The position numbers were made by a program, and so were the translations under genes. Below, in pieces: positions 595 to 63,942 of a stretch of 64,000 nt of DNA. The stretch lies in the NCBI GenBank assembly GCA_963843795.1, contig CAWJLW010000006.1:1426001-1490000 (forward strand), read 5' to 3'. The notes below the pieces were generated by a model. The model was not told where the DNA came from. It was given only the letters and a program-made list of their open reading frames with translations, and searched no databases. The first letter of the stretch is position 1, and each line of letters opens with the position of its first letter. The DNA is from an uncultured bacterium. Its GTDB lineage: Bacteria > Armatimonadota > Abditibacteriia > Abditibacteriales > Abditibacteriaceae.

Positions 595-622
595 AATGCC
601 CTGCAAGTACTTGCAGGGCATT
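595..622. repeat. 28-bp perfect palindrome centred on TGCAAGTACTTGCA
   Basis: AATGCCC-TGCAAGTACTTGCA-GGGCATT between the NmrA-like gene and dapA. Confidence 0.95.
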
Positions 623-670
623 GGATTGACATCGTTCTTCCTGCGGGCTGCCCGCATCATCAAATGAAAA

Positions 671-1525
671 TTAACTAAAAGCTGCTGCGTAATCGTGCGC
701 GAACTGTTGGAAGCTGCGCGGTGCGACACCCGTGACAGCTTCCACATCGGAAGTCACTTCCGCGCCCGCGTTCTGGCTCCACTGCTCATATTCGCCCAGC
801 AATCCATCCGCTGTCCATTCGGGAAAATGCACGCTTAACAAAATTGCGCGCATGGCGGCAGGCGGAATATCGATGTAGTGAATGGTGCGACCCAAAACCT
901 CCGAAAGCGTGTCTGCCATATCCGCGTGCGAGAGCGCCTGTGGGCCGGTGAGGTTGTAGGCCTTATTTTCGTGGCCCACTTGCGTGAAAGCGGCTAAGGC
1001 GACTTTGGCGATGTCGCGCACATCAATTACGCTCACGCGGCCTTCACCAATCGGCGCGTAAATCGCGTTTTGCGCTTTGATGGTCGGGGCGGAACTGAGC
1101 ATGGCTTGCATGAACAAGTTGGGCCGCAAAAAGGTGTATGTGATGCCAGAATTTTTGATGGCTGCTTCAACGATGCCATGATATTGCAAAAAGCGAGTGG
1201 GCGCATCGACATCGGCGCCCAACTGCGAAAGCTTAACGATGTGTTTGACACCAGATTTTTTGGCCTCGCGAACGAAATTGGTTTGCAATTCCGCTGCGTT
1301 TTGAAACGAGGGTGTCAGCAAAAAGGCTTTATCGATGCCCTGCAAAGCAGCGCGTAACGTTTCGGGCTGGTCGAAGTCGCCCGACACGATTTCGATGCCG
1401 GGTAATTTGATGGCGTCAGCTTTTGCAGGATGGCGCACCATCGCACGCGCCGAAATACCTTGTGCGACGAGCAATTTAATCAGTTCTGTGCCGTTGGTGC
1501 CGGTGGCACCGGTGATTAAAATCAT
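671..1525 (-). CDS. NmrA-like / atypical SDR NAD(P)H-binding oxidoreductase
   Basis: MILITGATGTNG Rossmann motif, LRPNLFMQ, IDVRDIA, YNLTGP. Confidence 0.85.
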   Translation of the reverse strand: MILITGATGTNGTELIKLLVAQGISARAMVRHPAKADAIKLPGIEIVSGDFDQPETLRAALQGIDKAFLLTPSFQNAAELQTNFVREAKKSGVKHIVKLSQLGADVDAPTRFLQYHGIVEAAIKNSGITYTFLRPNLFMQAMLSSAPTIKAQNAIYAPIGEGRVSVIDVRDIAKVALAAFTQVGHENKAYNLTGPQALSHADMADTLSEVLGRTIHYIDIPPAAMRAILLSVHFPEWTADGLLGEYEQWSQNAGAEVTSDVEAVTGVAPRSFQQFAHDYAAAFS

Positions 1526-1576
1526 CAGAGTTTCCTTGTTTGAAGCGGCAAGTACTTGCCGCGCGTATTTGCGACG

Positions 1577-2563
1577 TTATTCCGACCAAGTCAGAGCTTC
1601 GCTGGCTGCACCAGGCTGTTTCACCCACGCTTTACGGTCGCCTTTGCCGTCGTTGGCGATGCGCAAAATCGCTTCCGGCGGTTTTTCGTCCAAACGCGCC
1701 ACATAACGATATGAAGCTTGCGGCTTTTCCTGCGCGATGAGAGTCGCAATGGTCTTGATATCTTCAAGTGGCTGGCGCGAATTCAATTTCGCATATGTGC
1801 CCATATCGTTGTTCGGACGAGGTTTGGTGATATCGAACGAGGGTACGATCCACCACAGCGGCTTGTCCGGCCCGATTTTGCCTATCGCATCGCCCAGAAC
1901 ATTGGTTTCGCTGGGCGGTGGCACGACAGCGGGCGAAGCTATCTGCAACGTGCCATCAAGCGCGGGTTTCAGCGGTTTGGAAAGCAAATTCAACGAGGCT
2001 TCGTCCCAAGTCACTTTGGTTTCGGCCAACATAAACGGATGCAGCCAGATGCCGCCCTTGGGCGGCTCGATTTGAAAGCGCGAATTGCCAATCGGCTCGG
2101 CGGGCAATGCGGTCAATGTCAATTCTGGTTGCGGCCAAAACCAGCTGATGAAACCCTTGAAACCAGTGGCTTTGGCGCGACAGCGCGCGGTCAAAACCGA
2201 TTTCGCGGTCGGTTGCCAACGAAAATCATCAGCGGTTTTCTGCGTGGTGCCGTCGTGCCACAAAACGGTCCAGTTTTCAGATTCAGTTAGCAACACGCGA
2301 AAGGCGTTGCCCCGGCGCAGCAATACGGTCGAACCGGAACTGATGCGCTGTTCCATTTGTGGATTGGCCCAGCGCACGATTAAACCGGGTTGTTCGGGCG
2401 CGCTATCGCGTATCCAAACATAGCTGACTGTGCCCGCGATGAGCAGGAAAACTACGAGCCAGAACCAGCGATGCGAGCGCCGTTTGCGCTGGCGCGCCAC
2501 TGCCACACGCTGCTGAGAGCGCCCCACATACGCCAATCGTTCCGCATCGCGTCCGGTAATCAT
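1577..2563 (-). CDS. Hypothetical protein with N-terminal membrane anchor
   Basis: 328-aa ORF, basic stretch then one TM helix (WFWLVVFLLIAGTVSYVWI); co-oriented with neighbours. Confidence 0.7.
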   Translation of the reverse strand: MITGRDAERLAYVGRSQQRVAVARQRKRRSHRWFWLVVFLLIAGTVSYVWIRDSAPEQPGLIVRWANPQMEQRISSGSTVLLRRGNAFRVLLTESENWTVLWHDGTTQKTADDFRWQPTAKSVLTARCRAKATGFKGFISWFWPQPELTLTALPAEPIGNSRFQIEPPKGGIWLHPFMLAETKVTWDEASLNLLSKPLKPALDGTLQIASPAVVPPPSETNVLGDAIGKIGPDKPLWWIVPSFDITKPRPNNDMGTYAKLNSRQPLEDIKTIATLIAQEKPQASYRYVARLDEKPPEAILRIANDGKGDRKAWVKQPGAASEALTWSE

Positions 2564-2648
2564 AAATCAAATGTAAAAAAGAAGTGTGAAAACGCCTGCA
2601 AGTACTTGCAGCACACCCGAAGCCCGTTGCACTACTTTTGTTGTAGAT

Positions 2649-3728
2649 TTACTGAATAAATCCATCGCGTAACAGCATTTCAGCGACCAAAACTGCGCCG
2701 CGCGCCGCACCCATTTTTGTGTTGTGTGATACCAAAACCCATTTCACGCCGTGCGCGCTCAACACGGTTTCCTCGCGCACTCGACCGACAACCGTTGTCA
2801 TGCCATCGTTCATATCGCGGTCGCGGCGTGGCTGCGGACGAAACGGATCGTCGTGCACGAAAATCAATGGGTTGGGTGCCGAATGCAAACCTTGCAAGGC
2901 GCCATCGAACGAACGCATCGCTGCAATCGCGTCTTCGGGCAAGCAGGCTTTTTCAGTCGCCACAAAAACTGCTTCAGTGTGGCCGTCCAAAACGCCCACG
3001 CGTGTGCAAGTCGCCGAAACTCCGAACTGCGCGGGAACGATGCCATCATGGTTCAATGCGCCCAGAATTTTCTGCGTTTCTTTTTGGACTTTGGCTTCCT
3101 CGCCGGGAATGAATGGAATGACGTTCTCCATCGCGTCCAAACCCAAAACGCCGCCGCGTCGTCCCGCGCCGCTCATCGCTTGCAGCGAAGTTACTACAAC
3201 ACCTGAAATTCCAAACGCATCCTGAATCGGTTTCAATGTCATCGCCAGACCTGTGGTTGTGCAGTTGGGAATCGGTGTGACGAAACCTTGCCAGCCGCGC
3301 TCTTTTTGCTGGCGATGCAAAAGTGTCGCGTGGTCATTATTGACGCCAGGAATAATGATCGGCGTGTCATCGAAGTAGCGAAACGCCGAAGCGGTTGAAA
3401 TGACCGGCGTAGTTTGCGCATAACGTGGCTCGATTTCTTTGGCCGCATCGCTTTCCACTGCGGTGAACACTACATCGACGCTGCGCGCATCGAATTTCGC
3501 GCCATCAACCACGGGCATTTTGGCGAAATTAGCGGGCAAATCTTCCGCGCACCACCAGCCCAAGGCCCCTGATGGCTCCAAGAGCGCATCGTGATAGGTT
3601 TTGCCGGCGCTGCGTGGCGAGGCGGCGAGATGTGTGACTTCAAACTGCGGATGGTCGCGCAAAGCAGCAACAAACTGTTGTCCGGCGATGCCGGTTGCGC
3701 CAATGATGGCGGCTGTTTTCTTACTCAT
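2649..3728 (-). CDS. asd: Aspartate-semialdehyde dehydrogenase (archaeal/fungal-like subtype)
   Basis: GATGIAGQ, catalytic PNCTT, QAMSGAG, RVGVLDGH, PQPRRD, HNTKMGAA. Confidence 0.95.
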   Translation of the reverse strand: MSKKTAAIIGATGIAGQQFVAALRDHPQFEVTHLAASPRSAGKTYHDALLEPSGALGWWCAEDLPANFAKMPVVDGAKFDARSVDVVFTAVESDAAKEIEPRYAQTTPVISTASAFRYFDDTPIIIPGVNNDHATLLHRQQKERGWQGFVTPIPNCTTTGLAMTLKPIQDAFGISGVVVTSLQAMSGAGRRGGVLGLDAMENVIPFIPGEEAKVQKETQKILGALNHDGIVPAQFGVSATCTRVGVLDGHTEAVFVATEKACLPEDAIAAMRSFDGALQGLHSAPNPLIFVHDDPFRPQPRRDRDMNDGMTTVVGRVREETVLSAHGVKWVLVSHNTKMGAARGAVLVAEMLLRDGFIQ

Positions 3729-3744
3729 TCAATTCTCATTCAAT

Positions 3745-3772
3745 TATGCTCTGCAAGTACTTGCAGAGCATA
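3745..3772. repeat. 28-bp perfect palindrome around core
   Basis: TATGCTC-TGCAAGTACTTGCA-GAGCATA between dapB and asd. Confidence 0.95.
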
Positions 3773-3777
3773 TTTAT

Positions 3778-4599
3778 TCACAAAATATGTTCTAAACCAT
3801 AAGTCAAGCCCTGCAATTGCTGCACGGCTTTAATTGCACGCAACACGCCGGGCATGTAACATTCGCGCGTGATCGTATCGTGACGAATCGTCAGCGTTTG
3901 ACCGGCCATGCCCAGAATTACTTCCTGATGCGCCAGATAACCTGCCAAGCGCACGCTGTGAATTGGAATGCCACCGATTTCTCCGCCGCGCGCACCAATC
4001 GCCGAAGAACCTTCGGCTTCGCTATCGCCGCCGATGCGATTGAAATCTTCGCCGCGCGCTTCACGCATTACCAGCGCGGTTTTGAAAGCGGTGCCCGATG
4101 GCGCATCCAATTTTTTATCGTGGTGATATTCGATAATTTCTGCACTGGGAAACAATTTCGCGCATTCTGCAGCGAAACGCATCATTAAAACCGCTCCGAT
4201 GGCAAAGTTGGGCGCAATGAAAACCGGCACGTTTTTCTCGCGACTCAAAGCGTCAATCGCGGCGAGATCGTCTTCTTTTAAACCGGTCGTGCCCACAACT
4301 GGCGCGACGCCAGCATCAATCATAGTGCGCACATTCTGCATCACGCCCTGCGGTACGGAAAAATCGACCGCGATTTGCGCGCCGGAATTTTTCAGCGCGC
4401 TCACCAAATTTTCTTCGATGAAGACATTTTGTACCCCAACACCGGCAACCGTTCCGGCATCTTCACCGATTCTATCGCGCGCCACCGCGCCAACCAACTG
4501 CAAATCCGGGTCATTGACCACGGCGCGCACGACTTCGCTGCCCATGCGGCCCGAAGCGCCGCTTACAAGTACTTGTATCATTGGCTTTATTTTACCCAA
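3778..4599 (-). CDS. dapB: 4-hydroxy-tetrahydrodipicolinate reductase
   Basis: GASGRMG, VVGTTG, APNFAIG, EYHHDKKLDAPSGTA. Confidence 0.97.
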   Translation of the reverse strand: MGKIKPMIQVLVSGASGRMGSEVVRAVVNDPDLQLVGAVARDRIGEDAGTVAGVGVQNVFIEENLVSALKNSGAQIAVDFSVPQGVMQNVRTMIDAGVAPVVGTTGLKEDDLAAIDALSREKNVPVFIAPNFAIGAVLMMRFAAECAKLFPSAEIIEYHHDKKLDAPSGTAFKTALVMREARGEDFNRIGGDSEAEGSSAIGARGGEIGGIPIHSVRLAGYLAHQEVILGMAGQTLTIRHDTITRECYMPGVLRAIKAVQQLQGLTYGLEHIL

Positions 4600-5875
4600 C
4601 CTTTATTTCGAGTGCGGGTTTGTCATCTTCAAAAGGCCCGACCGCGACTACATTCATCAATTCATCGTTGAACATTTCTTGCGCCACATTCCGAATATCA
4701 GCGCGGGTGACACCTAAAATATCATCCAAAACGTCCTGCGTCGAGCGCTGATGTCCGTAATACCACTCGTTGCGCGCAATACGCCCCATTTGCGAAGACG
4801 AACTTTCCTCGGCCAGCAACAAATTGGCGCGCGACATTTGATTGGCGCGCGTCAATTCCTCCTCGGTCACGCCATCTTTTTTCACCGAGCGCAATTCTTT
4901 GGCGATGAGTTGTGCGGTTTCGTGCGCATTTTCCGGTGCGACGCTGGTCGCCACGCTCCAAAAACCGCCCCGCCGATACTGCGCCGAATTGGAGCCAATC
5001 GAATAGCACAAACCGCGCTTTTCACGGATTTCCTGAAACAAACGCGACGAATAGCCGCCAGTCAAAATCGTATCCAAGGTATAAGCTGCGAAGCGGCGAG
5101 GATCATCGTGCGCATAAGCGCGCGTTCCGGCACACAAATGCACCTGCTCGACATCGCGTGATTCTAAAGCCATTTGCGCGCTTACGGTGGGAATGCTCGG
5201 CATGCGATGCGCGCCGTTACTATTGTTGTCGCGTCCCGGCAAATTTTGTAATAGCTGCTGCGCTTGCTCGACAATTTTTTCGTGCTCGATATCGCCGACC
5301 GCAACCACCAGCGTGTGACGAGGCGCGTAATGCGTTTTCATAAAAGCGCGCAGGTCGTCTGGTGTGAAGCGCGACACCGTTTTTTCCTGTCCTGTAATCG
5401 GACGTCCCCAGCGCGAGCGCGGATAAATCGTCTGCGAAAACAGTTCGTCCGCAAGGTCTTCAGGCACATCATCTATCGAGCGAATTTCTTCGATAATGAC
5501 GCCTTTTTCCAATTCTAAATCTGCGGCATCTAAAATCGAAGAAGTTGCCAGTTCGCACAATAATTCGAGCGCAATCGGCGCGTGTTCGGACAGGGTTTTG
5601 GCGTGATAACAGACGAACTCACGGTCGGTGAAAGCGTTGGTCTGGCCGCCAATCGAATCCATTAATTCGGCAATTTGTGATGAAGTGCGTTGCTGCGTGC
5701 CCTTGAAAACCATGTGTTCGAGCAGATGCGCCAACCCGCTTTGGTTCTTGTTTTCATAGACCGCACCGGCTTCAAACCAGAGGCCAATAGTCGCGGAGTG
5801 AACGTGTGGATGATGTTCGGTGAGAACGCGCAAACCATCGGGCAAGACGGTTTTGCGAAAAGTAGAATCTTTCAT
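4592..5875 (-). CDS. M16 family (pitrilysin-like) zinc peptidase
   Basis: HLLEH inverted zinc motif, TNAFT, SRLFQEIREKRGLCY. Confidence 0.93.
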   Translation of the reverse strand: MKDSTFRKTVLPDGLRVLTEHHPHVHSATIGLWFEAGAVYENKNQSGLAHLLEHMVFKGTQQRTSSQIAELMDSIGGQTNAFTDREFVCYHAKTLSEHAPIALELLCELATSSILDAADLELEKGVIIEEIRSIDDVPEDLADELFSQTIYPRSRWGRPITGQEKTVSRFTPDDLRAFMKTHYAPRHTLVVAVGDIEHEKIVEQAQQLLQNLPGRDNNSNGAHRMPSIPTVSAQMALESRDVEQVHLCAGTRAYAHDDPRRFAAYTLDTILTGGYSSRLFQEIREKRGLCYSIGSNSAQYRRGGFWSVATSVAPENAHETAQLIAKELRSVKKDGVTEEELTRANQMSRANLLLAEESSSSQMGRIARNEWYYGHQRSTQDVLDDILGVTRADIRNVAQEMFNDELMNVVAVGPFEDDKPALEIKVG

Positions 5876-6007
5876 GGATTTAGGGAGACAAAATTAAACC
5901 GCCGAGAATGCTTAAAGATTTCTCGGCGGCAATTCAGTGTAACGCCCTCAATACTCACACGACATTCCGCAGCTAAATAGTGCTGCAAGTACTTGCAGCG
6001 CTGTTTT

Positions 6008-8200
6008 TCATGGCAACATGGGAATCGGTTCGCCGTATGCAATGCCGCGCCCGTTGGTGGCGACGAAAACGCGGCCATAAACGCGCGGATCGCCGATGAC
6101 CGCGCGACCAATCCAGCCGTAGCGATGCGCGTCGTCGTTGATACGCGTCCACGTCGCGCCGCTATCGTCCGAACGATAAACACCGTAAATCTCGTTGGCC
6201 TTGCCCGCGATGTAAAGTGCCGGATAATTTTTATCGGGAGCCGCTTTTCCAAAACCAATTGTATCTGTTGTTTGCACGCTGGTCACTTTTTGCCAGTTCG
6301 CGCCGCCATCCGTCGAATGCCACAAGCCCTCATCGCCCGCTGCTAACCACAAATCACCTTGGTGCTCGGGAACCGCGCGCAGGCGACGGGCAGTTTTGGG
6401 TAATGTTGCCTCGCGCGCTGTGAAGCTCGCACCGCCATCGGTGCTGAAGTATAGTTTTCCGGCTTTTCCATCGAGCGCATAAAACCCTTGCGGATTAACA
6501 CGATCCGCGACTACATCGCAATTGGCTTCCAAACCTTTGCAGCGCGTCCATGTAACGCCTTTGTCGCGGGAAAAATGGGCGAAATTATCGGGCGCGACCC
6601 ACACGAAACTCGCTCCATCGGCAGAAACCGCGACCGAACGCGAACGTGCATCGACATCGCGCGCGCTCGTGGGTTCGCTCGCAAACGGCGTCCACGAAAT
6701 TGCGCCATCGACTGAAACCGCGCCGCGCTTTTCGCCTTTGCCCGCGGTGCCTACGCGCACAACGATATTTGGATTTAATTCCGCGAAATCTAAGGCCGTG
6801 ACATTGTTCATCGTCGGGTTCGTCCACATTCCGCTTTGCGGAGAAGCACCCAAATCGTCGTGTCGAAAACCGCCGATGTCGCCCAGTCCGCTGATGAGGT
6901 GCGGTCCAGAAGGTGGGCTAATCAAATCAATCACGGCGGTTTCTTCGATGCCACGCGCGTGCACCGTCCAATGTGTGGGCTGATTCTGGTCGGCATTGAT
7001 CAAATCTTGCGTGCCCCAAATGGTTGCGCCCGTCACATACATCGCGTGATTGGAATTGAACGGGTCGATTTCGACATCGCCGATCCAGTGACCGAATTCG
7101 GCTTTATCGCGCCCCCACTTCAAAAACGGTGACAACGAACTATCGCGCTCGGCTAGCGCGCGCAGACCCGTCCAACTTTTTCCGCCATTGGTGCTGCGAA
7201 AAATATCGTCGCCTTTGCCCCAGCGATCCATCGTGGCCACCATCACAATATTCGGATTTTTCGCAGTCACCGCCAAACCTGCGTAGCCAAAATTTGTGTT
7301 ATCTCCGCCTGGCGCAATGGGTGTGATGTTCGTCCATTGATCGGTTTTGGTGTCGAGCTTCCAAACCGCGCCATCGCTCATGCCATTGGGTCCGGGTTTG
7401 TCGCCGTAGCTGAGATAAAGCGTGCCGTCGGCAGCTAAAACGCCATGATGTGGCAGCAAACCATTCGGCTGTCCGGGAACTTTTTGCCAACTTGTGCCGC
7501 CATCTTTGCTGCGATACAAATGTGTAGTTGGCGAAGCCACGCCCGCGTAAAGCGTTGGCGTTGGCGCGCCGATTTTGCCATCGCGCGCATCAAAAAAGAT
7601 AAAACCGACACCGATATTTTTGGTGTCGTCGGTGTTGGGGAACGTTGTCACTTGCTGCCAATTTGCACCGGAATCGGTGCTTTTCCACAAACCGTTGCTC
7701 CGCGTGCCTAGAAACAGAATGCGTCCGTCGTGCGGATCAACGACCAAGCGTTCGCCCATCGAACGTCCGTCCTCGTTGCCGCCCAACTTAAATGGTAAAT
7801 TGGTGCGCTGCCAGTTTTTACCCTGATCGCGCGAACGCAAAATCGCACCGTTGCCCGCCCAATCGTTGGTGTAAGTGCCTGCTGCCAGATAAACCACGTT
7901 GGCATCGGATGGATCGAGGCCGATGCTTTCGACGCCCAGTAAATTCCAATCGTCTGCGCTCACCCAATCTTGCAGCGCAATCCAGCGTTTTTGCACGCTG
8001 TCCCAGCGGTATGCACCACCGATATCGGTGCGACAATACATCAGATTTGGCTGTGTGGGATGAAACACGATGCCCGGTACGAAACCGCTGCCGACAATTT
8101 CGACCTGCCGCCAATTGTAAGCCTCAGCGGTCGCGGCGCAACCAATTCCGGTCACGAACCACAAACTCAGCAAAAGCGAGACGATAAATTTTAAACGCAT
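6008..8200 (-). CDS. GH74 xyloglucanase / endoglucanase, secreted
   Basis: Signal peptide from MRLKF; RTDIGGAYRWD, GIEET, LGDIGGF, BNR repeats (SxDGGxxW), ATNGRG. Confidence 0.93.
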   Translation of the reverse strand: MRLKFIVSLLLSLWFVTGIGCAATAEAYNWRQVEIVGSGFVPGIVFHPTQPNLMYCRTDIGGAYRWDSVQKRWIALQDWVSADDWNLLGVESIGLDPSDANVVYLAAGTYTNDWAGNGAILRSRDQGKNWQRTNLPFKLGGNEDGRSMGERLVVDPHDGRILFLGTRSNGLWKSTDSGANWQQVTTFPNTDDTKNIGVGFIFFDARDGKIGAPTPTLYAGVASPTTHLYRSKDGGTSWQKVPGQPNGLLPHHGVLAADGTLYLSYGDKPGPNGMSDGAVWKLDTKTDQWTNITPIAPGGDNTNFGYAGLAVTAKNPNIVMVATMDRWGKGDDIFRSTNGGKSWTGLRALAERDSSLSPFLKWGRDKAEFGHWIGDVEIDPFNSNHAMYVTGATIWGTQDLINADQNQPTHWTVHARGIEETAVIDLISPPSGPHLISGLGDIGGFRHDDLGASPQSGMWTNPTMNNVTALDFAELNPNIVVRVGTAGKGEKRGAVSVDGAISWTPFASEPTSARDVDARSRSVAVSADGASFVWVAPDNFAHFSRDKGVTWTRCKGLEANCDVVADRVNPQGFYALDGKAGKLYFSTDGGASFTAREATLPKTARRLRAVPEHQGDLWLAAGDEGLWHSTDGGANWQKVTSVQTTDTIGFGKAAPDKNYPALYIAGKANEIYGVYRSDDSGATWTRINDDAHRYGWIGRAVIGDPRVYGRVFVATNGRGIAYGEPIPMLP

Positions 8201-8220
8201 AGTTTTTCCTGTGGATAACA

Positions 8221-8252
8221 AAGCAGGCGCGCAAGTACTTGCGCGCCTGCTT
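8221..8252. repeat. 32-bp perfect palindrome around core
   Basis: AAGCAGGCGC-GCAAGTACTTGC-GCGCCTGCTT just upstream of the GH74 start. Confidence 0.95.
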
Positions 8253-8351
8253 CTCGGTTTTTAATGACAAAAACTGGGTTTTGGAATGTCTGTTTGGATT
8301 CTCGCGCTCGCGAAAAGTAACACAAAATGTATTGCAAGTACTTGCAACGCG

Positions 8352-9263
8352 TTATTCTCCTAAAACATCGACCAACCAGTTTGCCATGCGACTGCCCGCC
8401 AGCGCCAAACGCGTGTCGCAGAGAATTTTCATGTGACGAATATAATCCTGCGATGGTATTGCGCGCTGCGGTGTCGAAAACGCGAAATCGTCAGCCAGAA
8501 GATTGCTTTCGCGCGCCCACTCACTTGCCTTTAATTCGGGCTCAGCCACATTGGCTTCGCCCGATTTCTGTGCGAAATCCCGCACAATTTTCAAATCGGG
8601 ATGATCGGAAAACCCAGCGTCGTCAAGCATTTTTATGCGTCCATCGACGACATCGTAGCGATAACCAAAATCCCATAATTGATGCAAGCGCGCGTAAGTG
8701 GCGCCGCCATCGGGATCGTCTTTAGGCCGAAATGTCGCGGTTAAACCGGGCAGCGCACCGATGGGAAAATCGTTGCCGCCGCGATCTCGGTCGATGGCGT
8801 GCAATGGTTGGTGCAAATCGCCGATAACGTGAATCGCAATCGCCAGCCATTCGGCGCGCATTTTCGCGTCGGAATCGGACGAACGCAGCACGACACGCGC
8901 CATTTTCAAGGCGTCGAGCGCGTTGGTTGCTTCTATTGAGTCGGGATTGGCCTTGGCTTTGGCATCGACGTAATGCAGCGAACTGAGATTGTCGCGTTGA
9001 TGGCCTGCTTTCACATCATCCATCCAGCACGAAGCAGTCACGAAATCGTAAGGCCGCGCGGTAGCGTCGCTGCGAAAATCGGGCAGGGCACGCAACAATT
9101 CATCGGCTTTTTGGCGCGTTGCGACTGGTAAGTGATTGTAAGCGATTTGAGCGGAAATCATGTGGCCGCCCGCGTCCCACGCGCTGCAAGTACTTGCAGC
9201 AGCATTGAGCAGGAAAAATGAAGCGGCAAGTGCTTGCAATGGTTGGCGAATAAAATTGAGCAT
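8352..9263 (-). CDS. S1/P1 nuclease, secreted
   Basis: Signal peptide then WDAGGH; WMDD, HVIGDLHQPLH, DRGGN, LHQLWD zinc motifs. Confidence 0.9.
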   Translation of the reverse strand: MLNFIRQPLQALAASFFLLNAAASTCSAWDAGGHMISAQIAYNHLPVATRQKADELLRALPDFRSDATARPYDFVTASCWMDDVKAGHQRDNLSSLHYVDAKAKANPDSIEATNALDALKMARVVLRSSDSDAKMRAEWLAIAIHVIGDLHQPLHAIDRDRGGNDFPIGALPGLTATFRPKDDPDGGATYARLHQLWDFGYRYDVVDGRIKMLDDAGFSDHPDLKIVRDFAQKSGEANVAEPELKASEWARESNLLADDFAFSTPQRAIPSQDYIRHMKILCDTRLALAGSRMANWLVDVLGE

Positions 9264-9269
9264 AAAAAC

Positions 9270-19453: not shown

Positions 19454-19459
19454 GAAACC

Positions 19460-50735: not shown

Positions 50736-50778
50736 AAATGCGTTGTGCAAGTACTTGCAGCGCCAAGTGGAACGAATT

Positions 50779-52266: not shown

Positions 52267-52275
52267 TTTCCGAAT

Positions 52276-53775: not shown

Positions 53776-53978
53776 GAGTTTAGGCGCTGTTTTCTCGCTG
53801 CAAGTACTTGCAGCAGTTCCGAGACGCGCAAAACATTTTAACGCGCGCTGTTGTAATGGGTATACTGCTTTCTCGCCACGAAATGCGTTGCCGCTACTTG
53901 CAGCGCTCACTGCTCGCCAAAGCGGGCGAAAAATGACGGGAGATTGAGCCGGTATTTGGGTGGAAGTTAGAGTTTGCG

Positions 53979-55118: not shown

Positions 55119-55171
55119 CATAGCGGGAAGTTAATTGGCAAGATAGAAGTAGAAAGCAAACGCAAAAAATT

Positions 55172-57073: not shown

Positions 57074-57087
57074 AAAGAAAATGTCGT

Positions 57088-57119
57088 AAAACGCCCTGCA
57101 AGTACTTGCAGGGCATTTT
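57088..57119. repeat. Core palindrome with GCCC/GGGC arms
   Basis: AAAAC-GCCC-TGCAAGTACTTGCA-GGGC-ATTTT. Confidence 0.9.
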
Positions 57120-57147
57120 CTTGAAAAACCGAGTTTTTAAAAGCATT

Positions 57148-58381
57148 GTGAGTTCACCCAAAATCCCCCAATTGCCCTTTTCCGATCAACGCTTGCGCGT
57201 GATGCGATTGATCGCGCGTCTTAATATCGGCGGCCCGGCCATTCACACCACACTTTTGACCGAACGCTTGAATCCACAGCGATTTTCTTCGACTTTGGTG
57301 ACTGGCGTCGAAGCGGCCAACGAAGGCCACATGTGGGAATTGATGGGGCCGCGCGATTGGCAACCGATAATCGTGCCTTCGCTGGGGCGTGAAATTTCGC
57401 CGAAAAACGACATCAGCACGCTCCGCGAGGTTGTGCGTTTAATGCGCGCTCAACAGCCGCACATTGTGCATACGCACACGGCTAAAGCCGGCTTTGTCGG
57501 GCGTATGGCGGCGCGTTTGTGCCGTGTACCAATTGTGATTCACACGTTTCACGGCAATGTTTTCAACGGCTACTTTTCGCCGCGCAAAACAAAACTATTC
57601 ATCGGTGTCGAAAAAATGCTGGCTCGTAGGCACCGACCGCATCATCGTGCTGGGTGAGCAACAGAAAAACGAAATTCTACAACTGGGCATCGGGCGCGAA
57701 AAACAGTTTCGCATTGTGCCGCTGGGCTTGGATTTGAAGCCATTTTTGGAAGCCGAACAATGGCGCGGGCAGTTGAAAAGCGAATTGGGTCTCGCGCCCC
57801 AAACTCCTCTGGTTGGCATCGTAGCGCGTCTGGTTCCAATCAAAGCAATAGATATTTTTCTCAAGGCTGCCGCGCAAGTACTTGCAGCGCAACCAGATGC
57901 GCATTTTGTGATTGCGGGCGATGGCGATTTGCGCGCTGAACTGGAAAAATTATCGCAAACTTTAAAAATTCAACATCGCGTGCATTTTTTGGGTTTTCGT
58001 GCCGATTTGCCGCGCATCAACGCCGATTTAAGTTGCAAGGTTTTGTGTTCTTTGAACGAAGGTTTACCAGTCGCCGTCATCGAGGCGCTCGCTTCAGCGC
58101 GGCCTGTCGTGGCCACTGATGTAGGCAGCGTTAAAGATTTAGTAGTCAACGAAGATAGCGGCGTTTTGGTGCCATCGGGCGACGTTGATGCTCTGGCTCA
58201 GGGGATTTTGCGGGTTTTGGAAAAACCCGAACGCGCGGCGCAGTGGGGGAAAAATGGGCGTGAAAGAGTTTTTCCCGCACTAGATATCAGCCGTTTGGTG
58301 AGTGACATCGAAGCATTGTATTGGGAAGTGGCGCGTGAGAAAAATCTGCCGACCAAAAAAGAGCCATTGGTAAAATCATGA
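57148..58381 (+). pseudogene. GT4 glycosyltransferase with +1 frameshift near 57628
   Basis: IARLNIGGPA...HTAKAG...EKMLAR then a shift to GTDRIIVL...NEGLPVAVIEA; start uncertain. Confidence 0.8.
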
Positions 58382-58468
58382 GACGACGCGGCCTGAAAGT
58401 GCGATAATATCACGCGCACGACAAAATTTGAATTGTAAAAATGAATTGAAATTGAAAGGGGAACTGTT

Positions 58469-59413
58469 TTGGCCGGAAATGCTGTGGTTTTGGTGACAGG
58501 CGGCGCTGGTTTTATCGGCTCGCATCTGGTGCGCCGCTTGTTGAACGATAATTATTCGGTTCGTGTCTTGGATAATCTCGCGACCGGGAAGTTGGAAAAT
58601 CTCGCGCCAGTGCAAAATGACATCGAAATGATCAACGGCAGTATCGCCGATGAGGATGCCGTGTCGCGCGCCGTCAGCGGAGTTGATTTTATCCTGCATC
58701 AAGCGGCGATTCCATCCGTGCCACGCTCGGTGCGCGACCCGATTGGCTCCAATGAAATCAACGTCGATGGCACGTTGCTCCTGCTCAATGTAGCACGTCA
58801 GTCCGGTGTGCAGCGCGTGGTTTACGCTGCTTCCTCGAGCGCTTATGGTAACACACCAATTCTGCCCAAAGTGGAAACTATGCGCAGCGAACCTCTATCG
58901 CCCTATGCCGTAGCGAAGTTGGCGGGCGAAAATTACTGCCGCGCCTTTACTCACGTTTACGGGTTGGAAACCGTTGCCCTTCGATATTTCAATGTTTTCG
59001 GCCCGCGCCAAGACCCGATGTCGGAATACGCTGCGGTGATTCCCAAATTTATTTTGGCCTTGTTGAACAATCAGCCGATTACAATTCACGGCGACGGCGA
59101 ACAATCACGCGATTTTACTTACATCGACAATACGGTGGATGGCAATCTGCGCGCGATGAATTCGCCCAACGCCAGCGGCGAAATGATGAATCTGGCGTGC
59201 GGCGCGAGCTTTACGCTCAACGATTTGGTGCGCGAACTGGAAGCCATCACCGGTCGCAAGGCCAATGTGCAACATTTGGAGAAGCGCACCGGCGATGTGA
59301 AAGATTCGCTGGCCGATATCGACAAAGCGCGCCGCTTGCTCGATTACGAACCGCTGGTTTCGTTTCGGGAAGGTTTAGAGCGCACGGTCAAGTACTTTCA
59401 AGACACTATTTAA
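58469..59413 (+). CDS. NAD-dependent sugar epimerase (UDP-GlcNAc/Glc 4-epimerase-like)
   Basis: TGGAGFIGS, AASSS, YAVAK, LRYFNVFGPRQDP; TTG start. Confidence 0.9.
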   Translation: MAGNAVVLVTGGAGFIGSHLVRRLLNDNYSVRVLDNLATGKLENLAPVQNDIEMINGSIADEDAVSRAVSGVDFILHQAAIPSVPRSVRDPIGSNEINVDGTLLLLNVARQSGVQRVVYAASSSAYGNTPILPKVETMRSEPLSPYAVAKLAGENYCRAFTHVYGLETVALRYFNVFGPRQDPMSEYAAVIPKFILALLNNQPITIHGDGEQSRDFTYIDNTVDGNLRAMNSPNASGEMMNLACGASFTLNDLVRELEAITGRKANVQHLEKRTGDVKDSLADIDKARRLLDYEPLVSFREGLERTVKYFQDTI

Positions 59414-59442
59414 TAGTTATAGCTATAGAGGCGGAATATCAG

Positions 59443-60417
59443 TTGAAGATTCTCATTACGGGCGGCGCGGGCTTTATCGGCTCGCATTTATCGGAATTGT
59501 TGCTGCAAGACCCGGAAACTCAGGTCACTATCGTCGATTCTTTATCGACGGGCACCTATCACAACATTCAGCATCTCACTCACAACAGCAATTATCGCTT
59601 AATTGTTGCGCCAGTCACCGACACCAAAATTCTTGAACCCTTAGTCGAAGCCAGCGATCACGTTTATCATTTGGCTGCTGCCGTCGGCGTGCGTCGTATT
59701 ATCGAGCAGCCGGTCGAAACCATTGAAACCAACATTTTGGGCACCGAAGCCGTTCTCAGCCTGGCGGCTAAATATCACAAGAAAGTTTTGGTCGCTTCGA
59801 CTTCGGAAGTTTATGGCAAGAACTCTAACGTGCCTTTTAGCGAAGACGACGACAGCGTGTTCGGCGCGACCACCAAAAGCCGATGGAGCTACGCTTGCTC
59901 CAAAGCCATAGACGAATTTTTGGCCCTTGCCTATCACAAGGAAAAAGGTTTGCCGGTTGTTATCGTGCGCTTTTTCAATACGGTCGGCCCGCGCCAGACC
60001 GGTCGTTATGGCATGGTCATTCCCAATTTGGTTAAGCAGGCTTTACGAAACTTGCCGCTCACCGTTTTCGGCGATGGCCAGCAATCTCGCTGTTTCACTC
60101 ATGTCAAAGATTCCATTAAATGCCAGACGGCGCTGATGAACGAACCGCGTGCGATTGGACAAGTCTTTAATTTAGGTGCGAATCAGGAAGTTACCATTGA
60201 AGATCTCGCGCGCCGCATCATTGAAATGACCGGCTCCCATTCGCAGTTGCGCTATATGTCGTATGAGGAAGCCTATGAATCCGGCTTTGAAGATATGCGC
60301 CGCCGCGTGCCCGATACTACCAAAGTGCGCAATTTACTGGGATTCGCGCCTGACTCCAAACTCGACGATATTCTGCATGATGTCATCGAATATTTTCGCG
60401 CGCACCCCGAAATTTAA
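59443..60417 (+). CDS. NAD-dependent epimerase/dehydratase (UDP-GlcA decarboxylase-like)
   Basis: TTG start; TGGAGFIGS, STSEVYG, RWSYACSK, RFFNTVGPRQ. Confidence 0.88.
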   Translation: MKILITGGAGFIGSHLSELLLQDPETQVTIVDSLSTGTYHNIQHLTHNSNYRLIVAPVTDTKILEPLVEASDHVYHLAAAVGVRRIIEQPVETIETNILGTEAVLSLAAKYHKKVLVASTSEVYGKNSNVPFSEDDDSVFGATTKSRWSYACSKAIDEFLALAYHKEKGLPVVIVRFFNTVGPRQTGRYGMVIPNLVKQALRNLPLTVFGDGQQSRCFTHVKDSIKCQTALMNEPRAIGQVFNLGANQEVTIEDLARRIIEMTGSHSQLRYMSYEEAYESGFEDMRRRVPDTTKVRNLLGFAPDSKLDDILHDVIEYFRAHPEI

Positions 60418-60433
60418 AACCTTTGTGCGATTG

Positions 60434-60473
60434 AAAAATTCCTTTCTGCAAGTACTTGCAGAAAGGAATTTTT
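60434..60473. terminator. 40-bp perfect palindrome / terminator
   Basis: AAAAATTCCTTTC-TGCAAGTACTTGCA-GAAAGGAATTTTT after the EPS operon. Confidence 0.85.
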
Positions 60474-60590
60474 ATTTGCGTTGCGAATTTTTAGACACAG
60501 CAATAACCAGAAAATGCAACGCTCCACAACACATCGCGTTGGAAAAATCGAACGTCACCGCACCACGCAATTTATACTGCGAGCATCCTT

Positions 60591-61877
60591 ATGAATATCT
60601 GGAATCAAGCCATCGAACGCGCCGGACTGTCGGAAATTCACGCCAAAGTTTTGGCGGGACAACGTCTCAGCTATGACGACGGGCTGCAATTATACGCGAC
60701 ACCGGCTCTTTCTGTTGTTGGTTATCTGGCCAACATTGTGCGCGAGCGATTGAATGGCAACAACGCTTACTGGGTGCGCAATCAGCACGTCAATTACACC
60801 AACATTTGCAACAAAGGTTGCCTATTTTGTTCGTTCTACGCCAAGCCCAAAGATGACCCGCGCGCTTATGTGATGTCGCCGGAACAAGCGGCACAAAAGG
60901 TCGCTAATTATGGCGATGTGCCGATTTCGGAAATTCATGTCGTCGGCGGCGTCAATCCGAAATTGCCCTACGATTATTATCTCGATTTGCTGCGCGCTAT
61001 CAAAGCCGCGCGGCCCGCAGCGCACATCAAAGCGTTCACGATGATTGAAATCGACCAGATCGTGCGCGCGGCCAAGAAAACTCCTGCTGAAGTCTTTGAA
61101 GATTTGAAAGCTGCGGGTTTGGACGCACTGCCCGGCGGCGGCGCCGAAGTAATGAGCGAACGCGTGCACGAAGATTTGTTCGCCGCTAAGCCCAATGCCG
61201 CGCGCTGGCTCGAACTGGCGCAAATCGCGCATCGCGCCGGATTGAAAACTAACGCGACTTTGCTTTATGGACACGTCGAACAAACGCCGGAAAAAGTGGA
61301 GCATTTCGTGCGTTTGCGCGAAGCGCAGGACGAAAGTTTGGCCAATACAACTGGCGGATTCTTGACGTTTATTCCCCTGAGTTGGCATCCCGAAAAGACC
61401 GCATTAGAATCGATTGCGCCGCCAACCGGCGTTGAGGATTTGCGCGAAATCGCGGTCGCGCGTTTGATGCTGGACAACTTTCCGCACATCAAAAGTTTTT
61501 GGATTATGAATAGCGCGCCGGTCACGCAAAGCGCGCTTTGGTACGGCGCGGATGATGTGGACGGAACGATTATGGAGTACGAAATCATTCGCGACCCGAC
61601 ACGCGACCGCAAACAGGTTTTGACTTCGCGCCAACTGGTCGAAATGATTATCGAAGCCGGTCGCGATCCTCTCGAACGCGACCCATTTTACAAAGTGTTA
61701 TCGCACGGTTTGGAAGGTGTGCACGACGTGGAAACTTTGCTGGTGAACGAGCGTGCGGATGCCGGACATAACGTGGCAAACTTGGATATTATGACGCGCA
61801 AAGATGTTGAAACGGCGGCGCAGAAACAAAAGGGTCGCGCCCGTGAGAAAGGTTTGATTCCTCTCGAAGCCGTGTAA
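60591..61877 (+). CDS. mqnE: Aminofutalosine synthase (radical SAM)
   Basis: NYTNICNKGCLFC, HIKAFT, PGGGAE, NATLLYGH, HIKSFW, GADDVDGT. Confidence 0.85.
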   Translation: MNIWNQAIERAGLSEIHAKVLAGQRLSYDDGLQLYATPALSVVGYLANIVRERLNGNNAYWVRNQHVNYTNICNKGCLFCSFYAKPKDDPRAYVMSPEQAAQKVANYGDVPISEIHVVGGVNPKLPYDYYLDLLRAIKAARPAAHIKAFTMIEIDQIVRAAKKTPAEVFEDLKAAGLDALPGGGAEVMSERVHEDLFAAKPNAARWLELAQIAHRAGLKTNATLLYGHVEQTPEKVEHFVRLREAQDESLANTTGGFLTFIPLSWHPEKTALESIAPPTGVEDLREIAVARLMLDNFPHIKSFWIMNSAPVTQSALWYGADDVDGTIMEYEIIRDPTRDRKQVLTSRQLVEMIIEAGRDPLERDPFYKVLSHGLEGVHDVETLLVNERADAGHNVANLDIMTRKDVETAAQKQKGRAREKGLIPLEAV

Positions 61878-61942
61878 AATATCCTGCACGCCGAACGCAT
61901 TAGTGGAAGCGTTCGAAAATTCTCGTTTTGGGAGATTCATCT

Positions 61943-62353
61943 ATGTCGATGCTGCAGGAATTTAAAGAGTTCGCGCTCAAAGGCAATATGCTCGATTTAG
62001 CGATTGGGCTAATTTTGGGCAGTTCGTTTGGTAACGTGGTCAATTCGTTAGTTACTGACTTGATTGTGCCAAGAATCAAGGGTTTAACCTCGGGCGATGT
62101 TAATGCGGCATTGGCGCCACTCGATTACGGCGCGGTTTTTGGCAGTTTGCTAAGTTTCGTGATGTTGAGTGCCGTAACATTTGTTGTGGTGAAAATTATC
62201 AATAAATTGAAGCGTGGCGAGGAGCCAGCGCCGGTCGAAAAAGAATGTCCGCACTGTTATTTTTCGGTTCCAGTCAAAGCCACGCGCTGCGGCCATTGCA
62301 CTTCTATGTTGGGCAACGATTCGATGCCTGAAACTGCAACCGTCACGCTTTGA
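61943..62353 (+). CDS. mscL: Large-conductance mechanosensitive channel with C-terminal zinc ribbon
   Basis: EFKEFALKGNMLDLAIG, VNSLVTDLI, CPHC...RCGHC. Confidence 0.9.
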   Translation: MSMLQEFKEFALKGNMLDLAIGLILGSSFGNVVNSLVTDLIVPRIKGLTSGDVNAALAPLDYGAVFGSLLSFVMLSAVTFVVVKIINKLKRGEEPAPVEKECPHCYFSVPVKATRCGHCTSMLGNDSMPETATVTL

Positions 62354-62438
62354 ATGCGCTGCAAGTACTTGCACTGCAGAAATGCAGCGCGGAACACGCC
62401 TGTAAAGCTGCTGGTCACAGTTAAAGGAGGTTGCGATA

Positions 62439-62726
62439 ATGAACACTTTCATTCCGCTCGAAGATGTGCGCGTGGCAACACCGTGCCGCGCTGACTGGAA
62501 CAAAATGGAGGGCGACGGCAACGCGCGTTTTTGCGGCTCGTGCGCCAAAAATGTTTACAACCTGTCCGAGATGACGCGCGCCGATGCCGAACACTTGATT
62601 CTGGAGCACGAAGGCCATTTATGTGTGCGCTATTATCAGCGCGCCGATGGCACCGTGCTCACCAAAGATTGTCCGGTTGGTATCACCGAACGTCGCCGTC
62701 CGTTCCGCGATCACCAACAATGTTAG
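62439..62726 (+). CDS. Small Cys-rich conserved hypothetical protein
   Basis: AAGGAGG RBS; PCRADWNKM...RFCGSCAKNVYNLSEM...LCVRYYQRADG...DCP. Confidence 0.8.
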   Translation: MNTFIPLEDVRVATPCRADWNKMEGDGNARFCGSCAKNVYNLSEMTRADAEHLILEHEGHLCVRYYQRADGTVLTKDCPVGITERRRPFRDHQQC

Positions 62727-62756
62727 GACAAATTGAAGCACCAAAGGAAAACCACG

Positions 62757-63896
62757 ATGAACAGCCCCGCAAGTACTTGCAGCCCCAATGAAACTCAAAA
62801 CATAGATGACATCGCGTCCAAAGTTTGGAATGGCGAACGTTTATCTTATGAAGATGGCGTGCGTTTGATGCATCATCCAAATTTGAACGAACTGGCGATT
62901 TTGGCCGATCACGTTCGCCAGCGCGTCAATCCGGGCCGCGTCGTGACGTATATCGCGGGGCGCAATATCAATTATTCCAACGTGTGCTGGGTGCAATGTA
63001 AGTTCTGCGCATTTTACGATTTGCCGTCCTCGCAAAAAGGCTACACGCTTTCGCACGATCAGATTTTTGGCAAAATCCAAGAAATGGTCGATTTGGGCGG
63101 TATCGAAATTCTGCTGCAAGGCGGCCTCAATCCGCGCTTGAAAATCGACTATTACGAAGATTTATTCAGCGCCATCAAAGCCAAATTCCCGCAAGTGTGG
63201 ATTCACGGACTCAGCGTCGCCGAAATTCTCTACATCGCCAAAATCTCACGCTTGAGTTTGGAAGACACCCTGAAACGTTTGCGCGCTGCCGGTTTGGGCA
63301 CGATTCCTGGCGCGGGTGCAGAAATGCTGGTCGATCGCGTGCGCAAAGTCATCGCGCCCTACAAAGATACGACTGCTGAATGGCTCGACACGATGAGTTT
63401 GTGGCACCGTTTGGGTGGCCATTCCAGCGTGACGATGATGTATGGAACGGTCGATACGCCCGAAGATCGAGTCGAGCACATGATTCGCACGCGCGATGTG
63501 CAAGATAAATCGCTGGCCGAAACCATGGGCAGTTTCACCGCGTTTATCGCGTGGAATTTTCAGCCTGATGGCACGCCATTAGGCAATCAATTGAAAAGTG
63601 AAACTCTCGATTGGCGCAAAGCCAGTGGCTTCGCTTATCTGCGCACCGTCGCCGTCGGACGTTTGCTGCTCGATAATATTCCACACCATCAAGCGAGTTG
63701 GGTCACGCAAGGCCCTAAAATCGCGCAAATCGCGCTAGATTATGGCTTAGACGATTTTGGCTCGACGATGATGGAAGAAAACGTGGTTTCCGCAGCCGGC
63801 ACCGATTTCGTGATGCCCATCAGCGAAATTGAACGCTTAATCAGCGAAGCGGGCTACGAACCCAAACGCCGCACTACACTTTACGAAGTGTTGTGA
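62757..63896 (+). CDS. mqnC: Cyclic dehypoxanthinyl futalosine synthase (radical SAM)
   Basis: RNINYSNVCWVQCKFC, LLQGG, PGAGAE, QASWVTQG, DFGSTMMEENVVSAAG. Confidence 0.92.
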   Translation: MNSPASTCSPNETQNIDDIASKVWNGERLSYEDGVRLMHHPNLNELAILADHVRQRVNPGRVVTYIAGRNINYSNVCWVQCKFCAFYDLPSSQKGYTLSHDQIFGKIQEMVDLGGIEILLQGGLNPRLKIDYYEDLFSAIKAKFPQVWIHGLSVAEILYIAKISRLSLEDTLKRLRAAGLGTIPGAGAEMLVDRVRKVIAPYKDTTAEWLDTMSLWHRLGGHSSVTMMYGTVDTPEDRVEHMIRTRDVQDKSLAETMGSFTAFIAWNFQPDGTPLGNQLKSETLDWRKASGFAYLRTVAVGRLLLDNIPHHQASWVTQGPKIAQIALDYGLDDFGSTMMEENVVSAAGTDFVMPISEIERLISEAGYEPKRRTTLYEVL

Positions 63897-63908
63897 ACTT
63901 GAAATTCA

Positions 63909-63942
63909 AAACGCGCCCTGCAAGTATTTGCAGGGCGCGTTT
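63909..63942 (+). terminator. Terminator with variant core (TGCAAGTATTTGCA)
   Basis: AAACGCGCCC-TGCAAGTATTTGCA-GGGCGCGTTT right after mqnC. Confidence 0.8.

What the first reader, a model, noticed from the sequence alone, without database searches (positions are those of the whole stretch)
595..63942. Highly iterated loopless palindrome (T)GCAAGTACTTGC(A), about one per 1.5 kb: candidate undescribed HIP1/uptake-sequence-like system
Seen: at least 44 exact GCAAGTACTTGC copies plus about 12 near variants in 64 kb, versus 64000/4^12 = about 0.004 expected. About 31 copies are intergenic and occupy most gene gaps regardless of function (dap genes, groES-groEL, EPS locus, nirA); about 13 lie inside CDSs. 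Known analogues are cyanobacterial HIP1 (GCGATCGC), Neisseria and Pasteurellaceae DNA uptake sequences (found in terminators and in frame in genes), and nucleoid-protein sites such as the E. coli SlmA site GTGAGTACTCAC, which shares the AGTACT centre. This motif matches none of them and I do not recall a description of it. Inference: it is a lineage-specific genome-wide signal, such as a self-DNA or uptake tag, a nucleoid or segregation protein site, or a methylation- or repair-driven motif (it nests GTAC, AGTACT and TGCA). No candidate cognate protein is evident in this window.
Basis: partly seen in the sequence, partly recalled or inferred. Interest (0 to 1): 0.95.

Follow-up and report, generated by a model that had tools for sequence, protein, structure and literature searches.

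The report
Species-specific DNA tag with helical flanks
This soil bacterium has written one 12-letter DNA palindrome into its genome about 2,600 times, inside genes and at gene ends, and related species use their own different words; the pattern best fits a self-recognition tag for taking up DNA from kin, so far known from only two bacterial families, but the protein that reads it is still unknown.

Summary
Confirmed: 44 exact GCAAGTACTTGC in the window, 2,567 in this 4.3-Mb Abditibacteriaceae genome, evenly spread along the chromosome and missing from two 26-kb islands. 746 lie in genes, mostly made by substitution at poorly conserved codons; 391 of 602 terminator-like hairpins have it at the apex. 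Even inside genes the flanks show an AT/GC wave of 10.4-bp period reaching about 40 bp each side (controls flat), so a protein probably reads it on bent double-stranded DNA. 11 of 27 family genomes carry such a word: AGTACT-centred palindromes (6), and non-palindromic AGTACGGTCGA (1), CCACAAAAAATG (1) and CAGCCACG (3), some as inverted pairs in terminators. ComEC, ComEA, DprA and a type IV pilus locus are present. Best reading (0.55): a DNA-uptake-sequence system with dialects, like Neisseriaceae DUS and Pasteurellaceae USS; uptake itself is untested and no receptor was found. The orphan methyltransferase does not track the words; ori/ter bias, RAYT and Ssn partners were not found. The scan found AGTACT dialects before in another genome of this family (e1-5297255); the unrelated words and phased flanks are added here.

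The parts
603..62780 (.). 44 exact GCAAGTACTTGC: 603, 1548, 2598, 3753, 5985, 8231, 8334, 9186, 10878, 11713, 12232, 15667, 19469, 20835, 22577, 27704, 27734, 28241, 29084, 30990, 31029, 32687, 35369, 35420, 35599, 37519, 38737, 39438, 39725, 40518, 41581, 44572, 47016, 47090, 49379, 50747, 52468, 52820, 53800, 57098, 57874, 60448, 62361, 62769 (first base of each 12-mer)
11690..11747 (.). 58-bp perfect palindrome with the word at its apex, between convergent genes; folds as an RNA hairpin with a GUAC loop; bidirectional terminator-like
   Evidence: (-43.7 kcal/mol, z -10.8)
22564..22601 (.). 38-bp palindrome 42 bp after groEL, GC stem plus T tail; terminator-like
   Evidence: (z -7.1)
60434..60473 (.). 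40-bp palindrome after the dehydratase gene; terminator-like
   Evidence: z -8.2
595..622 (.). 28-bp palindrome centred on the word (others of 28-32 bp: 3745-3772, 8221-8252, 19460-19489, 31019-31050, 39428-39459, 47007-47036)
27704..28252 (-). three in-frame copies (27704, 27734, 28241) in one deacetylase-like gene, all in the Gln-Val-Leu-Ala frame
37519..38748 (-). two in-frame copies in the LacZ-type beta-galactosidase (Lys-Tyr-Leu frame); the ortholog aligns without a gap at 38737
40518..40529 (+). in-frame copy in nirA; no strong hairpin as RNA (z -1.3)
12232..62780 (.). other coding copies: 12232, 29084, 52468, 52820, 57874, 62769
9226..63931 (.). one-mismatch variants at 9226, 12992, 17500, 19808, 24425, 42502, 43487, 55515, 63920; two-mismatch at 4565, 22769, 27486, 44560, 59388

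Best explanation
The word is a species-specific self-DNA tag of the DNA-uptake-sequence kind. SHOWN: it is genome-wide, arises in genes mostly by substitution, settles where constraint is low (variable codons, gaps, terminator hairpins), is scarce in IS-rich islands, has helically phased AT tracts on both sides, and differs between species. INFERRED: a DNA-binding subunit of the competence machinery (most likely a minor pilin of the type IV pilus) binds the 12-bp core and prefers DNA that bends around it; fragments with better sites enter and recombine more often, so over many rounds sites are driven to the consensus (molecular drive). The palindrome presents the site in both orientations and fits the apex of the family's GC-stem/T-tail terminators, which therefore collect it. 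A change of receptor specificity rewrites the word genome-wide, giving the dialects. The biased step could also lie after entry (processing or recombination).
For: 2,567 perfect, 506 one-off, 371 two-off copies against 0-1 perfect for six control palindromes. 746 in CDS, 490 in the QVLA frame; QVLA occurs 560 times against 40, 33, 26 for permutations. 74 of 98 ortholog alignments are ungapped at the site; amino-acid identity there 32% against 57% overall; density falls from 0.29 to 0.14 per kb with codon-model score. Sites are kept in place: AGTACT at the aligned position in 24 of 43 ungapped sites in metagenome relatives, 3 of 6 in G001, 0 of 56 in genomes without the AGTACT word; other GTAC kept in 11 of 164. 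391 of 602 terminator-like hairpins have it at the apex. Codon-corrected AT excess peaks at +9, +20, +31, +41 from the edge; period 10.4 bp, amplitude 7.4% (n=656) against 0.3-1.1% for four control word sets. Dialects: AAAGTACTTT 1,987 in G001; TCGAGTACTCGA 2,770 in G009, 2,510 in G015, 0 in G000; non-palindromic GTACGGTCGA 2,981 in G006, CCACAAAAAATG 2,162 in G020, CAGCCACG 2,676-3,503 in G007, G016, G018, equal on both strands, with inverted pairs in G006 and G020. ComEC in 27 of 27 family genomes; ComEA, DprA and a pilus locus in G000. These traits match DUS/USS as described in PMC2817400, PMC3630211, PMC7811141, bioRxiv 2025.10.24.684340.
Against: No uptake or binding data; no receptor found. 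The competence genes and the minor-pilin cluster are also in the 16 family genomes with no word seen, and no pilin tracked the words. Known DUS/USS are not palindromes (PMC1939737 passage); in G000 the whole palindrome is kept, lone half-sites being few. USS AT tracts are two, close to the core; here the wave runs 3-4 turns on both sides, which is also what wrapping by gyrase looks like (PMC6379681). Gaps near coding sites are 2-3 times background (24 of 98 against 10%; 18 of 74 against 8%), so some copies may be insertions. Site conservation with the g6 dialect genomes is poor (1 of 20 ungapped sites with AGTACT). Some plasmid/phage-like metagenome contigs carry the word (L279, L287, L302). 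Several pilus genes of G000 are split into pieces; assembly indels or real decay cannot be told apart. The metagenome loci were chosen by the motif, which favours conservation.
Confidence: 0.55

Rival explanations
1. HIP1-like methylation ratchet: an orphan methyltransferase marks GTAC/AGTACT and a methyl-directed repair or recombination factor fixes mutations towards the palindrome, about one site per kb (Elhai model), perhaps also aiding transformation.
For: Palindrome, density near 1 per 1-1.7 kb, sites conserved between genomes as for HIP1 (PMC5861425). G000 has one orphan beta-class N6/N4 methyltransferase (C6:2517365-2518135), full length in 20 of 27 family genomes. AGTACT is either very common or strongly avoided in the family; GTAC nearly absent in g5 samples.
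Against: The enzyme's predicted recognition region is near-invariant across genomes with AGTACT words, CAGCCACG, CCACAAAAAATG and none; G016 has a word but no full-length hit. Its closest solved relative is M.RsrI (GAATTC target recalled). Four genomes' words lack GTAC and five are not palindromes. One-off variants are spread over all positions (40-154 per position), not piled at the ends as the model predicts. A methylase footprint does not explain flanks phased to 40 bp. Many 6-bp palindromes are avoided in this family, so AGTACT avoidance is not special.
Confidence: 0.15
2. Chromosome-architecture site: a DNA-wrapping protein (a sequence-specific nucleoid protein, or gyrase with a specificity partner) binds each copy; selection keeps sites downstream of genes where supercoils build up.
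For: Symmetric 10.4-bp AT/GC wave resembles the symmetric 10.75-bp gyrase motif, and gyrase sites are enriched downstream of transcribed units and at BIME palindromes (PMC6379681 passages). Dyad with a 4-bp centre. Spacing more even than Poisson (variance/mean 0.61). Only one type IIA topoisomerase found.
Against: The gyrase motif is degenerate and 130 bp with arms from 17-20 to 63-66 bp; here an invariant 12-mer with a wave fading by about 48 bp from the centre. GyrA looks ordinary. No ori/ter bias, no long-range period. A housekeeping role fits poorly with three unrelated words and apparent absence in 16 of 27 genomes, including sisters on the ComEC tree (G020/G042, G012/G017). Even spacing follows from gene gaps.
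Confidence: 0.15
3. Selfish miniature palindrome (REP/REPIN- or Ssn-type) spread by a HUH or GIY-YIG nuclease.
For: Hairpins after genes, species-specific variants, 12 exact 12-bp tandem duplications on C6, G006 inverted doublets bounded by GTAC, raised gap rate at coding sites, patchy distribution.
Against: 29% of copies are in frame in genes and mostly substitution-made; arms differ from copy to copy. One weak Y1_Tnp hit in G000 (E 4e-7), none in G006, many in genomes without a word. G000's two GIY-YIG hits lie in 672- and 450-aa frames, not about 100-aa Ssn proteins. No cluster of 5 copies within 1.3 kb.
Confidence: 0.08
4. RNA-level signal: a preferred terminator apex or RNA-binding site.
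For: 391 of 602 terminator-like hairpins; strong folds.
Against: 746 coding and 265 divergent-gap copies; loop bases GTAC are as conserved as stem bases; relatives without words make similar long terminators with free loops; helical phasing is a double-stranded DNA property.
Confidence: 0.04

Closest known systems
DNA uptake sequences: Neisseriaceae DUS (receptor ComP) and Pasteurellaceae USS (PMC3630211, PMC2817400, PMC7811141, bioRxiv 2025.10.24.684340)
   Same: Thousands of copies; in genes with frame bias and tripeptide excess at poorly conserved residues; about half in terminators; species dialects round a kept core; scarce in foreign DNA; AT tracts beside the core (USS); competence genes present.
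   Different: Sequence unrelated; G000's word is a perfect palindrome at the hairpin apex, not an inverted pair; AT wave spans 3-4 turns on both sides; one family holds three unrelated words and many members with none; receptor and uptake bias not shown.
Cyanobacterial HIP1 GCGATCGC and alternate HIPs (PMC4390886, PMC5861425, PMC13756078, bioRxiv 2024.09.10.611283)
   Same: Loopless palindrome, about one per kb, in genes and spacers, conserved in place; lineage-specific replacements; HIP1 raises transformation when methylated.
   Different: 12-14 bp against 5-10; no methyltransferase matched to the word; no long-range period found; strong terminator enrichment; sister words not palindromic.
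Gyrase binding motif / BIME sites (PMC6379681)
   Same: Symmetric helical GC/AT wave; downstream-of-gene location.
   Different: Invariant core; shorter wave; species-specific.
REP/RAYT and NTS/Ssn repeats (PMC11893778 for Ssn; REP/RAYT recalled)
   Same: Short species-specific palindromes in hundreds of copies.
   Different: No nuclease gene tied to the word; many in-frame coding copies; arms not shared.

Membership tests
DUS/USS | Hundreds to thousands of copies, genome-wide, both strands | tested here: met
   non-palindromic sister words equal on both strands
DUS/USS | Coding copies by substitution, frame-biased, at poorly conserved residues | tested here: met
   (about a quarter of sites have a nearby gap)
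DUS/USS | Enrichment in intrinsic terminators | tested here: met
   inverted pairs in G006, G009, G012, G020
DUS/USS | Scarce in recently acquired DNA | tested here: met
   two 26-kb gaps, C3 3 in 40.6 kb (island genes named by eye); exceptions L279, L287, L302
DUS/USS | Competence machinery present | tested here: met
   also in genomes without words; some G000 pilus genes split
DUS/USS | Sequence homology to DUS or USS; non-palindromic core | tested here: not met
   G000 word is palindromic and unrelated
DUS/USS | Sequence-specific receptor pilin (ComP, ComN/PpdA) | tested here: inconclusive
   no pilin of the core cluster tracked the words; ComP family model not searched
DUS/USS | Preferential uptake of DNA bearing the word | not testable with these tools
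   needs a cultured carrier
HIP1 / alternate HIP | Highly iterated loopless palindrome conserved in place | tested here: met
HIP1 / alternate HIP | Methyltransferase specific for the palindrome co-occurs with it | tested here: not met
   the orphan enzyme does not track the words; its target is unknown; C5 methylases looked for by a short regex only
HIP1 / alternate HIP | One-off variants piled at terminal positions; quasi-periodic spacing | tested here: not met
   (top spectral peak 8.4 against about 8.1 expected for noise)
HIP1 / alternate HIP | Site is methylated in vivo | not testable with these tools
   needs long-read kinetics
SlmA/MatP/Noc/parS-type sites | Few sites, biased to or away from ori/ter (recalled) | tested here: not met
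REP/RAYT, NTS/Ssn | Cognate nuclease gene flanked by the repeat; extragenic insertions | tested here: not met

The most novel reading that the evidence does not exclude
Abditibacteriaceae have a third, independent sequence-specific DNA-uptake system whose receptor bends DNA over about 90 bp, can read palindromic or asymmetric words, and has switched specificity or been gained and lost several times within one family, each time rewriting thousands of genomic sites and hundreds of proteins; the words would act as species barriers.
Probability: 0.45. Interest if true: 0.9.

Novelty: new variant of a known kind. Interest (0 to 1): 0.78.

Why it matters
Sequence-specific uptake is described for two proteobacterial families (PMC1939737, PMC7811141) and proposed for cyanobacterial HIP1 (PMC13756078). 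A distant soil family with 11 carriers, three unrelated words and 16 apparent non-carriers gives the contrast needed to find a receptor by comparative genomics and to test how uptake sequences arise (molecular drive against selection). A palindromic word with uptake-like anatomy also links the DUS and HIP1 questions. In practice the word may be needed to transform these bacteria and is a strong binning marker.

Tried and rejected
Literature: exact word 0 papers; 'AGTACT + overrepresented + bacterial genomes + repeat' 2 unrelated; 'Abditibacteri + palindrom' 2 unrelated; searches listed nothing on this family's repeats. AGTACT over 401 phylum genomes: only 6, all in this family, reach about 750-1,230 per Mb; the highest of the other 374 outside the family is about 350 per Mb (read from rounded sizes). 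Viral scans: 6 of 6 loci single copy; 71 of 80 loci single, 9 with two, from four contigs without similarity to G000 proteins: no evidence on host phages. No RNA holder listed. Plasmid search with GroEL did not place the organism; family comes from names of methyltransferase homologs. Orphan methyltransferase, Y1 transposase, GIY-YIG, core minor pilins and the large tip protein as readers: none tracks the words; Atlas gave only unnamed hits under 0.9 for the tip protein; its tree did not finish. Flank phasing in G006, G020 and the CAGCCACG genomes: samples too small (35-91 sites); the five AGTACT sets all fit 10.3-10.8 bp but only G000 is far above noise. Genome-wide GTAC counts across the family could not be obtained; only samples. 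No whole-genome gene profile of carriers against non-carriers was possible. The ComEC tree is a quick tree; G014 was left out and G011 is a fragment.
Full report
OBSERVATION. The window holds 44 exact GCAAGTACTTGC, none in 100 shuffles, plus 9 one-off and 5 two-off variants; 32 are intergenic and 12 coding by my gene calls. The window is G000:C6:1,426,001-1,490,000. The genome has 2,567 copies over 11 contigs, 506 one-off and 371 two-off; six control palindromes have 0-1 perfect copies. Homologs of one G000 protein are named Abditibacterium utsteinense and Abditibacteriaceae bacterium, which places the family. A contig of soil run X1 spans the copy at 1548 without a difference (possibly the source sample). 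Metagenome assemblies of relatives (GC 59-71%, about 70% identity in aligned parts) carry CAAGTACTTG at similar density. It is not an artefact.

DISTRIBUTION. Along the 3.6-Mb contig density is 47-83 per 100 kb (30 in the first bin), with no change at the GC-skew turn near the window, and no long-range period. The two largest gaps, C6:56,010-82,495 and 517,680-543,429, hold transposase-like and type I restriction-like genes (named by eye); C3, with a phage-tail-like locus, has 3 copies in 40.6 kb. 746 copies are in CDS, 1,249 in tandem, 291 in convergent and 265 in divergent gaps. In convergent gaps 62% extend to perfect palindromes of 30 bp or more; 391 of 602 terminator-like hairpins have the word at the apex, 27 in the stem, 159 lack it. 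Three window examples fold with a GUAC loop at z -7 to -11, two other copies at z -2.2 and -1.3. Relatives without a word build similar long terminators with free loops, so the word has occupied an existing structure.

CODING COPIES. 490 of 746 are in the QVLA frame, and QVLA is 14 times commoner than its permutations. In 98 alignments to relatives' genes 74 have no gap at the site; identity at those codons is 32% against 57%. The 24 gapped cases are 2-3 times background and concentrate in the ASTC frame; they may be loops or insertions. Density halves from the lowest to the highest codon-score fifth. Sites persist: AGTACT stands at the aligned place in 24 of 43 ungapped sites in the metagenome relatives (chosen by the motif), 3 of 6 in G001, 1 of 20 in the four g6 palindrome genomes, 0 of 2 in G006, 0 of 56 in genomes without the AGTACT word; other GTAC are kept in 11 of 164.

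PHASED FLANKS. After correcting for codon position, AT content beside coding copies is low at +2-6, high at +9-10, and peaks again at +20, +31 and +41, on both sides and in all three frames (standard error about 1.4 points). The fit is 10.4 bp with amplitude 7.4% (n=656); AAGNNCTT, CAANNNNTTG, SAANNNNTTS and other GTAC words give 0.3-1.1%, and QVLA codons without AGTACT 3.0% (n=85, may include decayed sites). This is the mark of a protein that prefers bent double-stranded DNA (inference). It also explains the terminator link: the preferred flank, GC run then T tract, is a terminator's shape.

RELATIVES. The exact word is at background in 40 relatives and its 10-bp core in the 26 other family genomes, but AGTACT is at about 750-1,230 per Mb in 6 of 27 family genomes and in none of 374 other phylum genomes. 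Dialects: (C)AAAGTACTTT(G) in G001, TCGAGTACTCGA in G009, G015, G019, (C)GAGTACTC(G) in G012. G006 has a non-palindromic AGTACGGTCGAWWT, 2,981 copies, mostly in inverted pairs but also alone. G020 has CCACAAAAAATG(AAG), 2,162 copies with inverted pairs. G007, G016, G018 have CAGCCACG, 2,676-3,503 copies against about 300 for the control, without strand skew in two G007 samples. Samples of 8-80 kb from the other 16 genomes showed no such word. On a quick ComEC tree of 26 genomes carriers and non-carriers are interleaved.

READER. Nothing in the window. The one N6/N4 methyltransferase is an orphan nearest to M.RsrI among solved structures, full length in 20 of 27 genomes and nearly unchanged across all word types. 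Y1 transposases and small GIY-YIG nucleases do not track the word. ComEC is in 27 of 27; G000 has ComEA, DprA and a pilB-pilT-pilC-pilD locus with four pilin-like genes and a large tip protein; several of these are split in G000, whole in relatives. The cluster is family-wide and no member tracked the words.

MECHANISM. Shown: iteration, substitution origin, low-constraint placement, terminator occupancy, scarcity in islands, helical flanks, dialects, competence genes. Inferred: a receptor of the uptake or recombination path favours the word, and repeated transformation drives it up; receptor change rewrites it (0.55). Rivals: methylation ratchet (0.15), chromosome-wrapping or gyrase site (0.15), selfish palindrome (0.08), RNA signal (0.04).

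COMPARISON. It works like DUS/USS on five tested traits but is not a member by sequence, and uptake is untested; it shares palindromy with HIP1 but fails the matched-methylase and end-biased-variant tests. Papers seen: PMC4390886 abstract and first part of section 3.4; PMC13756078 abstract and one discussion section; PMC2817400 and bioRxiv 2024.09.10.611283 abstracts; passages of PMC3630211, PMC5861425, PMC1939737, PMC7811141, PMC6379681, PMC11893778 and bioRxiv 2025.10.24.684340; PMC12616744 and PMC3868556 as search listings only. No supplements were read; a word list in one could already include this family. Labels for SlmA/MatP/Noc/parS, REP/RAYT, Chi and the M.RsrI target are recalled.

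VERDICT. Real, not found in print with the searches named, a new variant of the iterated-signal kind; interest 0.78.

Noticed in passing
G020 genome-wide (e.g. L141, L129): Unrelated non-palindromic word CCACAAAAAATG(AAG), 2,162 copies, inverted pairs in terminators; sister G042 has 25 copies bunched on a few contigs (transfer or binning).
   Followed up: partly
G007, G016, G018 (L126, L127, L182-L185): CAGCCACG word, 2,676-3,503 copies, largely in genes; G016 shows a longer form ACACCAGCCACGTCCT.
   Followed up: partly
G006 (L121-L123): AGTACGGTCGAWWT, looks like the G009 word with two extra bases; overlapping inverted pairs round an AATT/ATTT centre.
   Followed up: partly
L375, L368, L370, L387, L394 (IMG/VR 3300009537_001754, _001544, 3300009514_000019): Phage contigs (GC 38-47%) with a 16-bp palindrome GTGCAAGTACTTGCAC just upstream of several genes, next to the ribosome site; likely a phage operator or promoter, host unknown.
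   Followed up: partly
L279, L287, L302: Plasmid- or phage-like metagenome contigs (replication-initiator-like and primase-like frames, by eye) carrying the G000 word with its flanks, with no protein similarity to G000.
   Followed up: partly
G000:C6:2517365-2518135 (L079): Orphan M.RsrI-like methyltransferase conserved in most of the family, lost or broken in some g2 genomes; target unknown. GTAC is almost absent from g5 samples.
   Followed up: partly
G000:C3:2600-27300: Phage-tail-like (contractile injection system-like) gene cluster, named by eye; nearly free of the word.
   Followed up: no
window 41617-43456; G000:C6:385800-398700: cysJ-like gene and several pilus genes are split into adjacent frames; probably assembly indels.
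   Followed up: no
G009 L039-L048: Second repeat type (GGGCGAAGCATGCTTCGCCC; GTCATTCTGAGCGCAGCGAAGAATCT arms) resembling Ssn-associated motifs; G009 has two small GIY-YIG frames (99, 106 aa).
   Followed up: no
L207, L209, L210, L212: The 1,300-aa pilus tip-like protein (no Pfam match) is duplicated in G012, G007, G016, G017; the PilV-like subunit is only 56% identical between G007 and G018 while pilD is 94%.
   Followed up: partly
L180-L181 (G013): An 11-mer set repeated 41 times in a few places, CRISPR-array-like.
   Followed up: no
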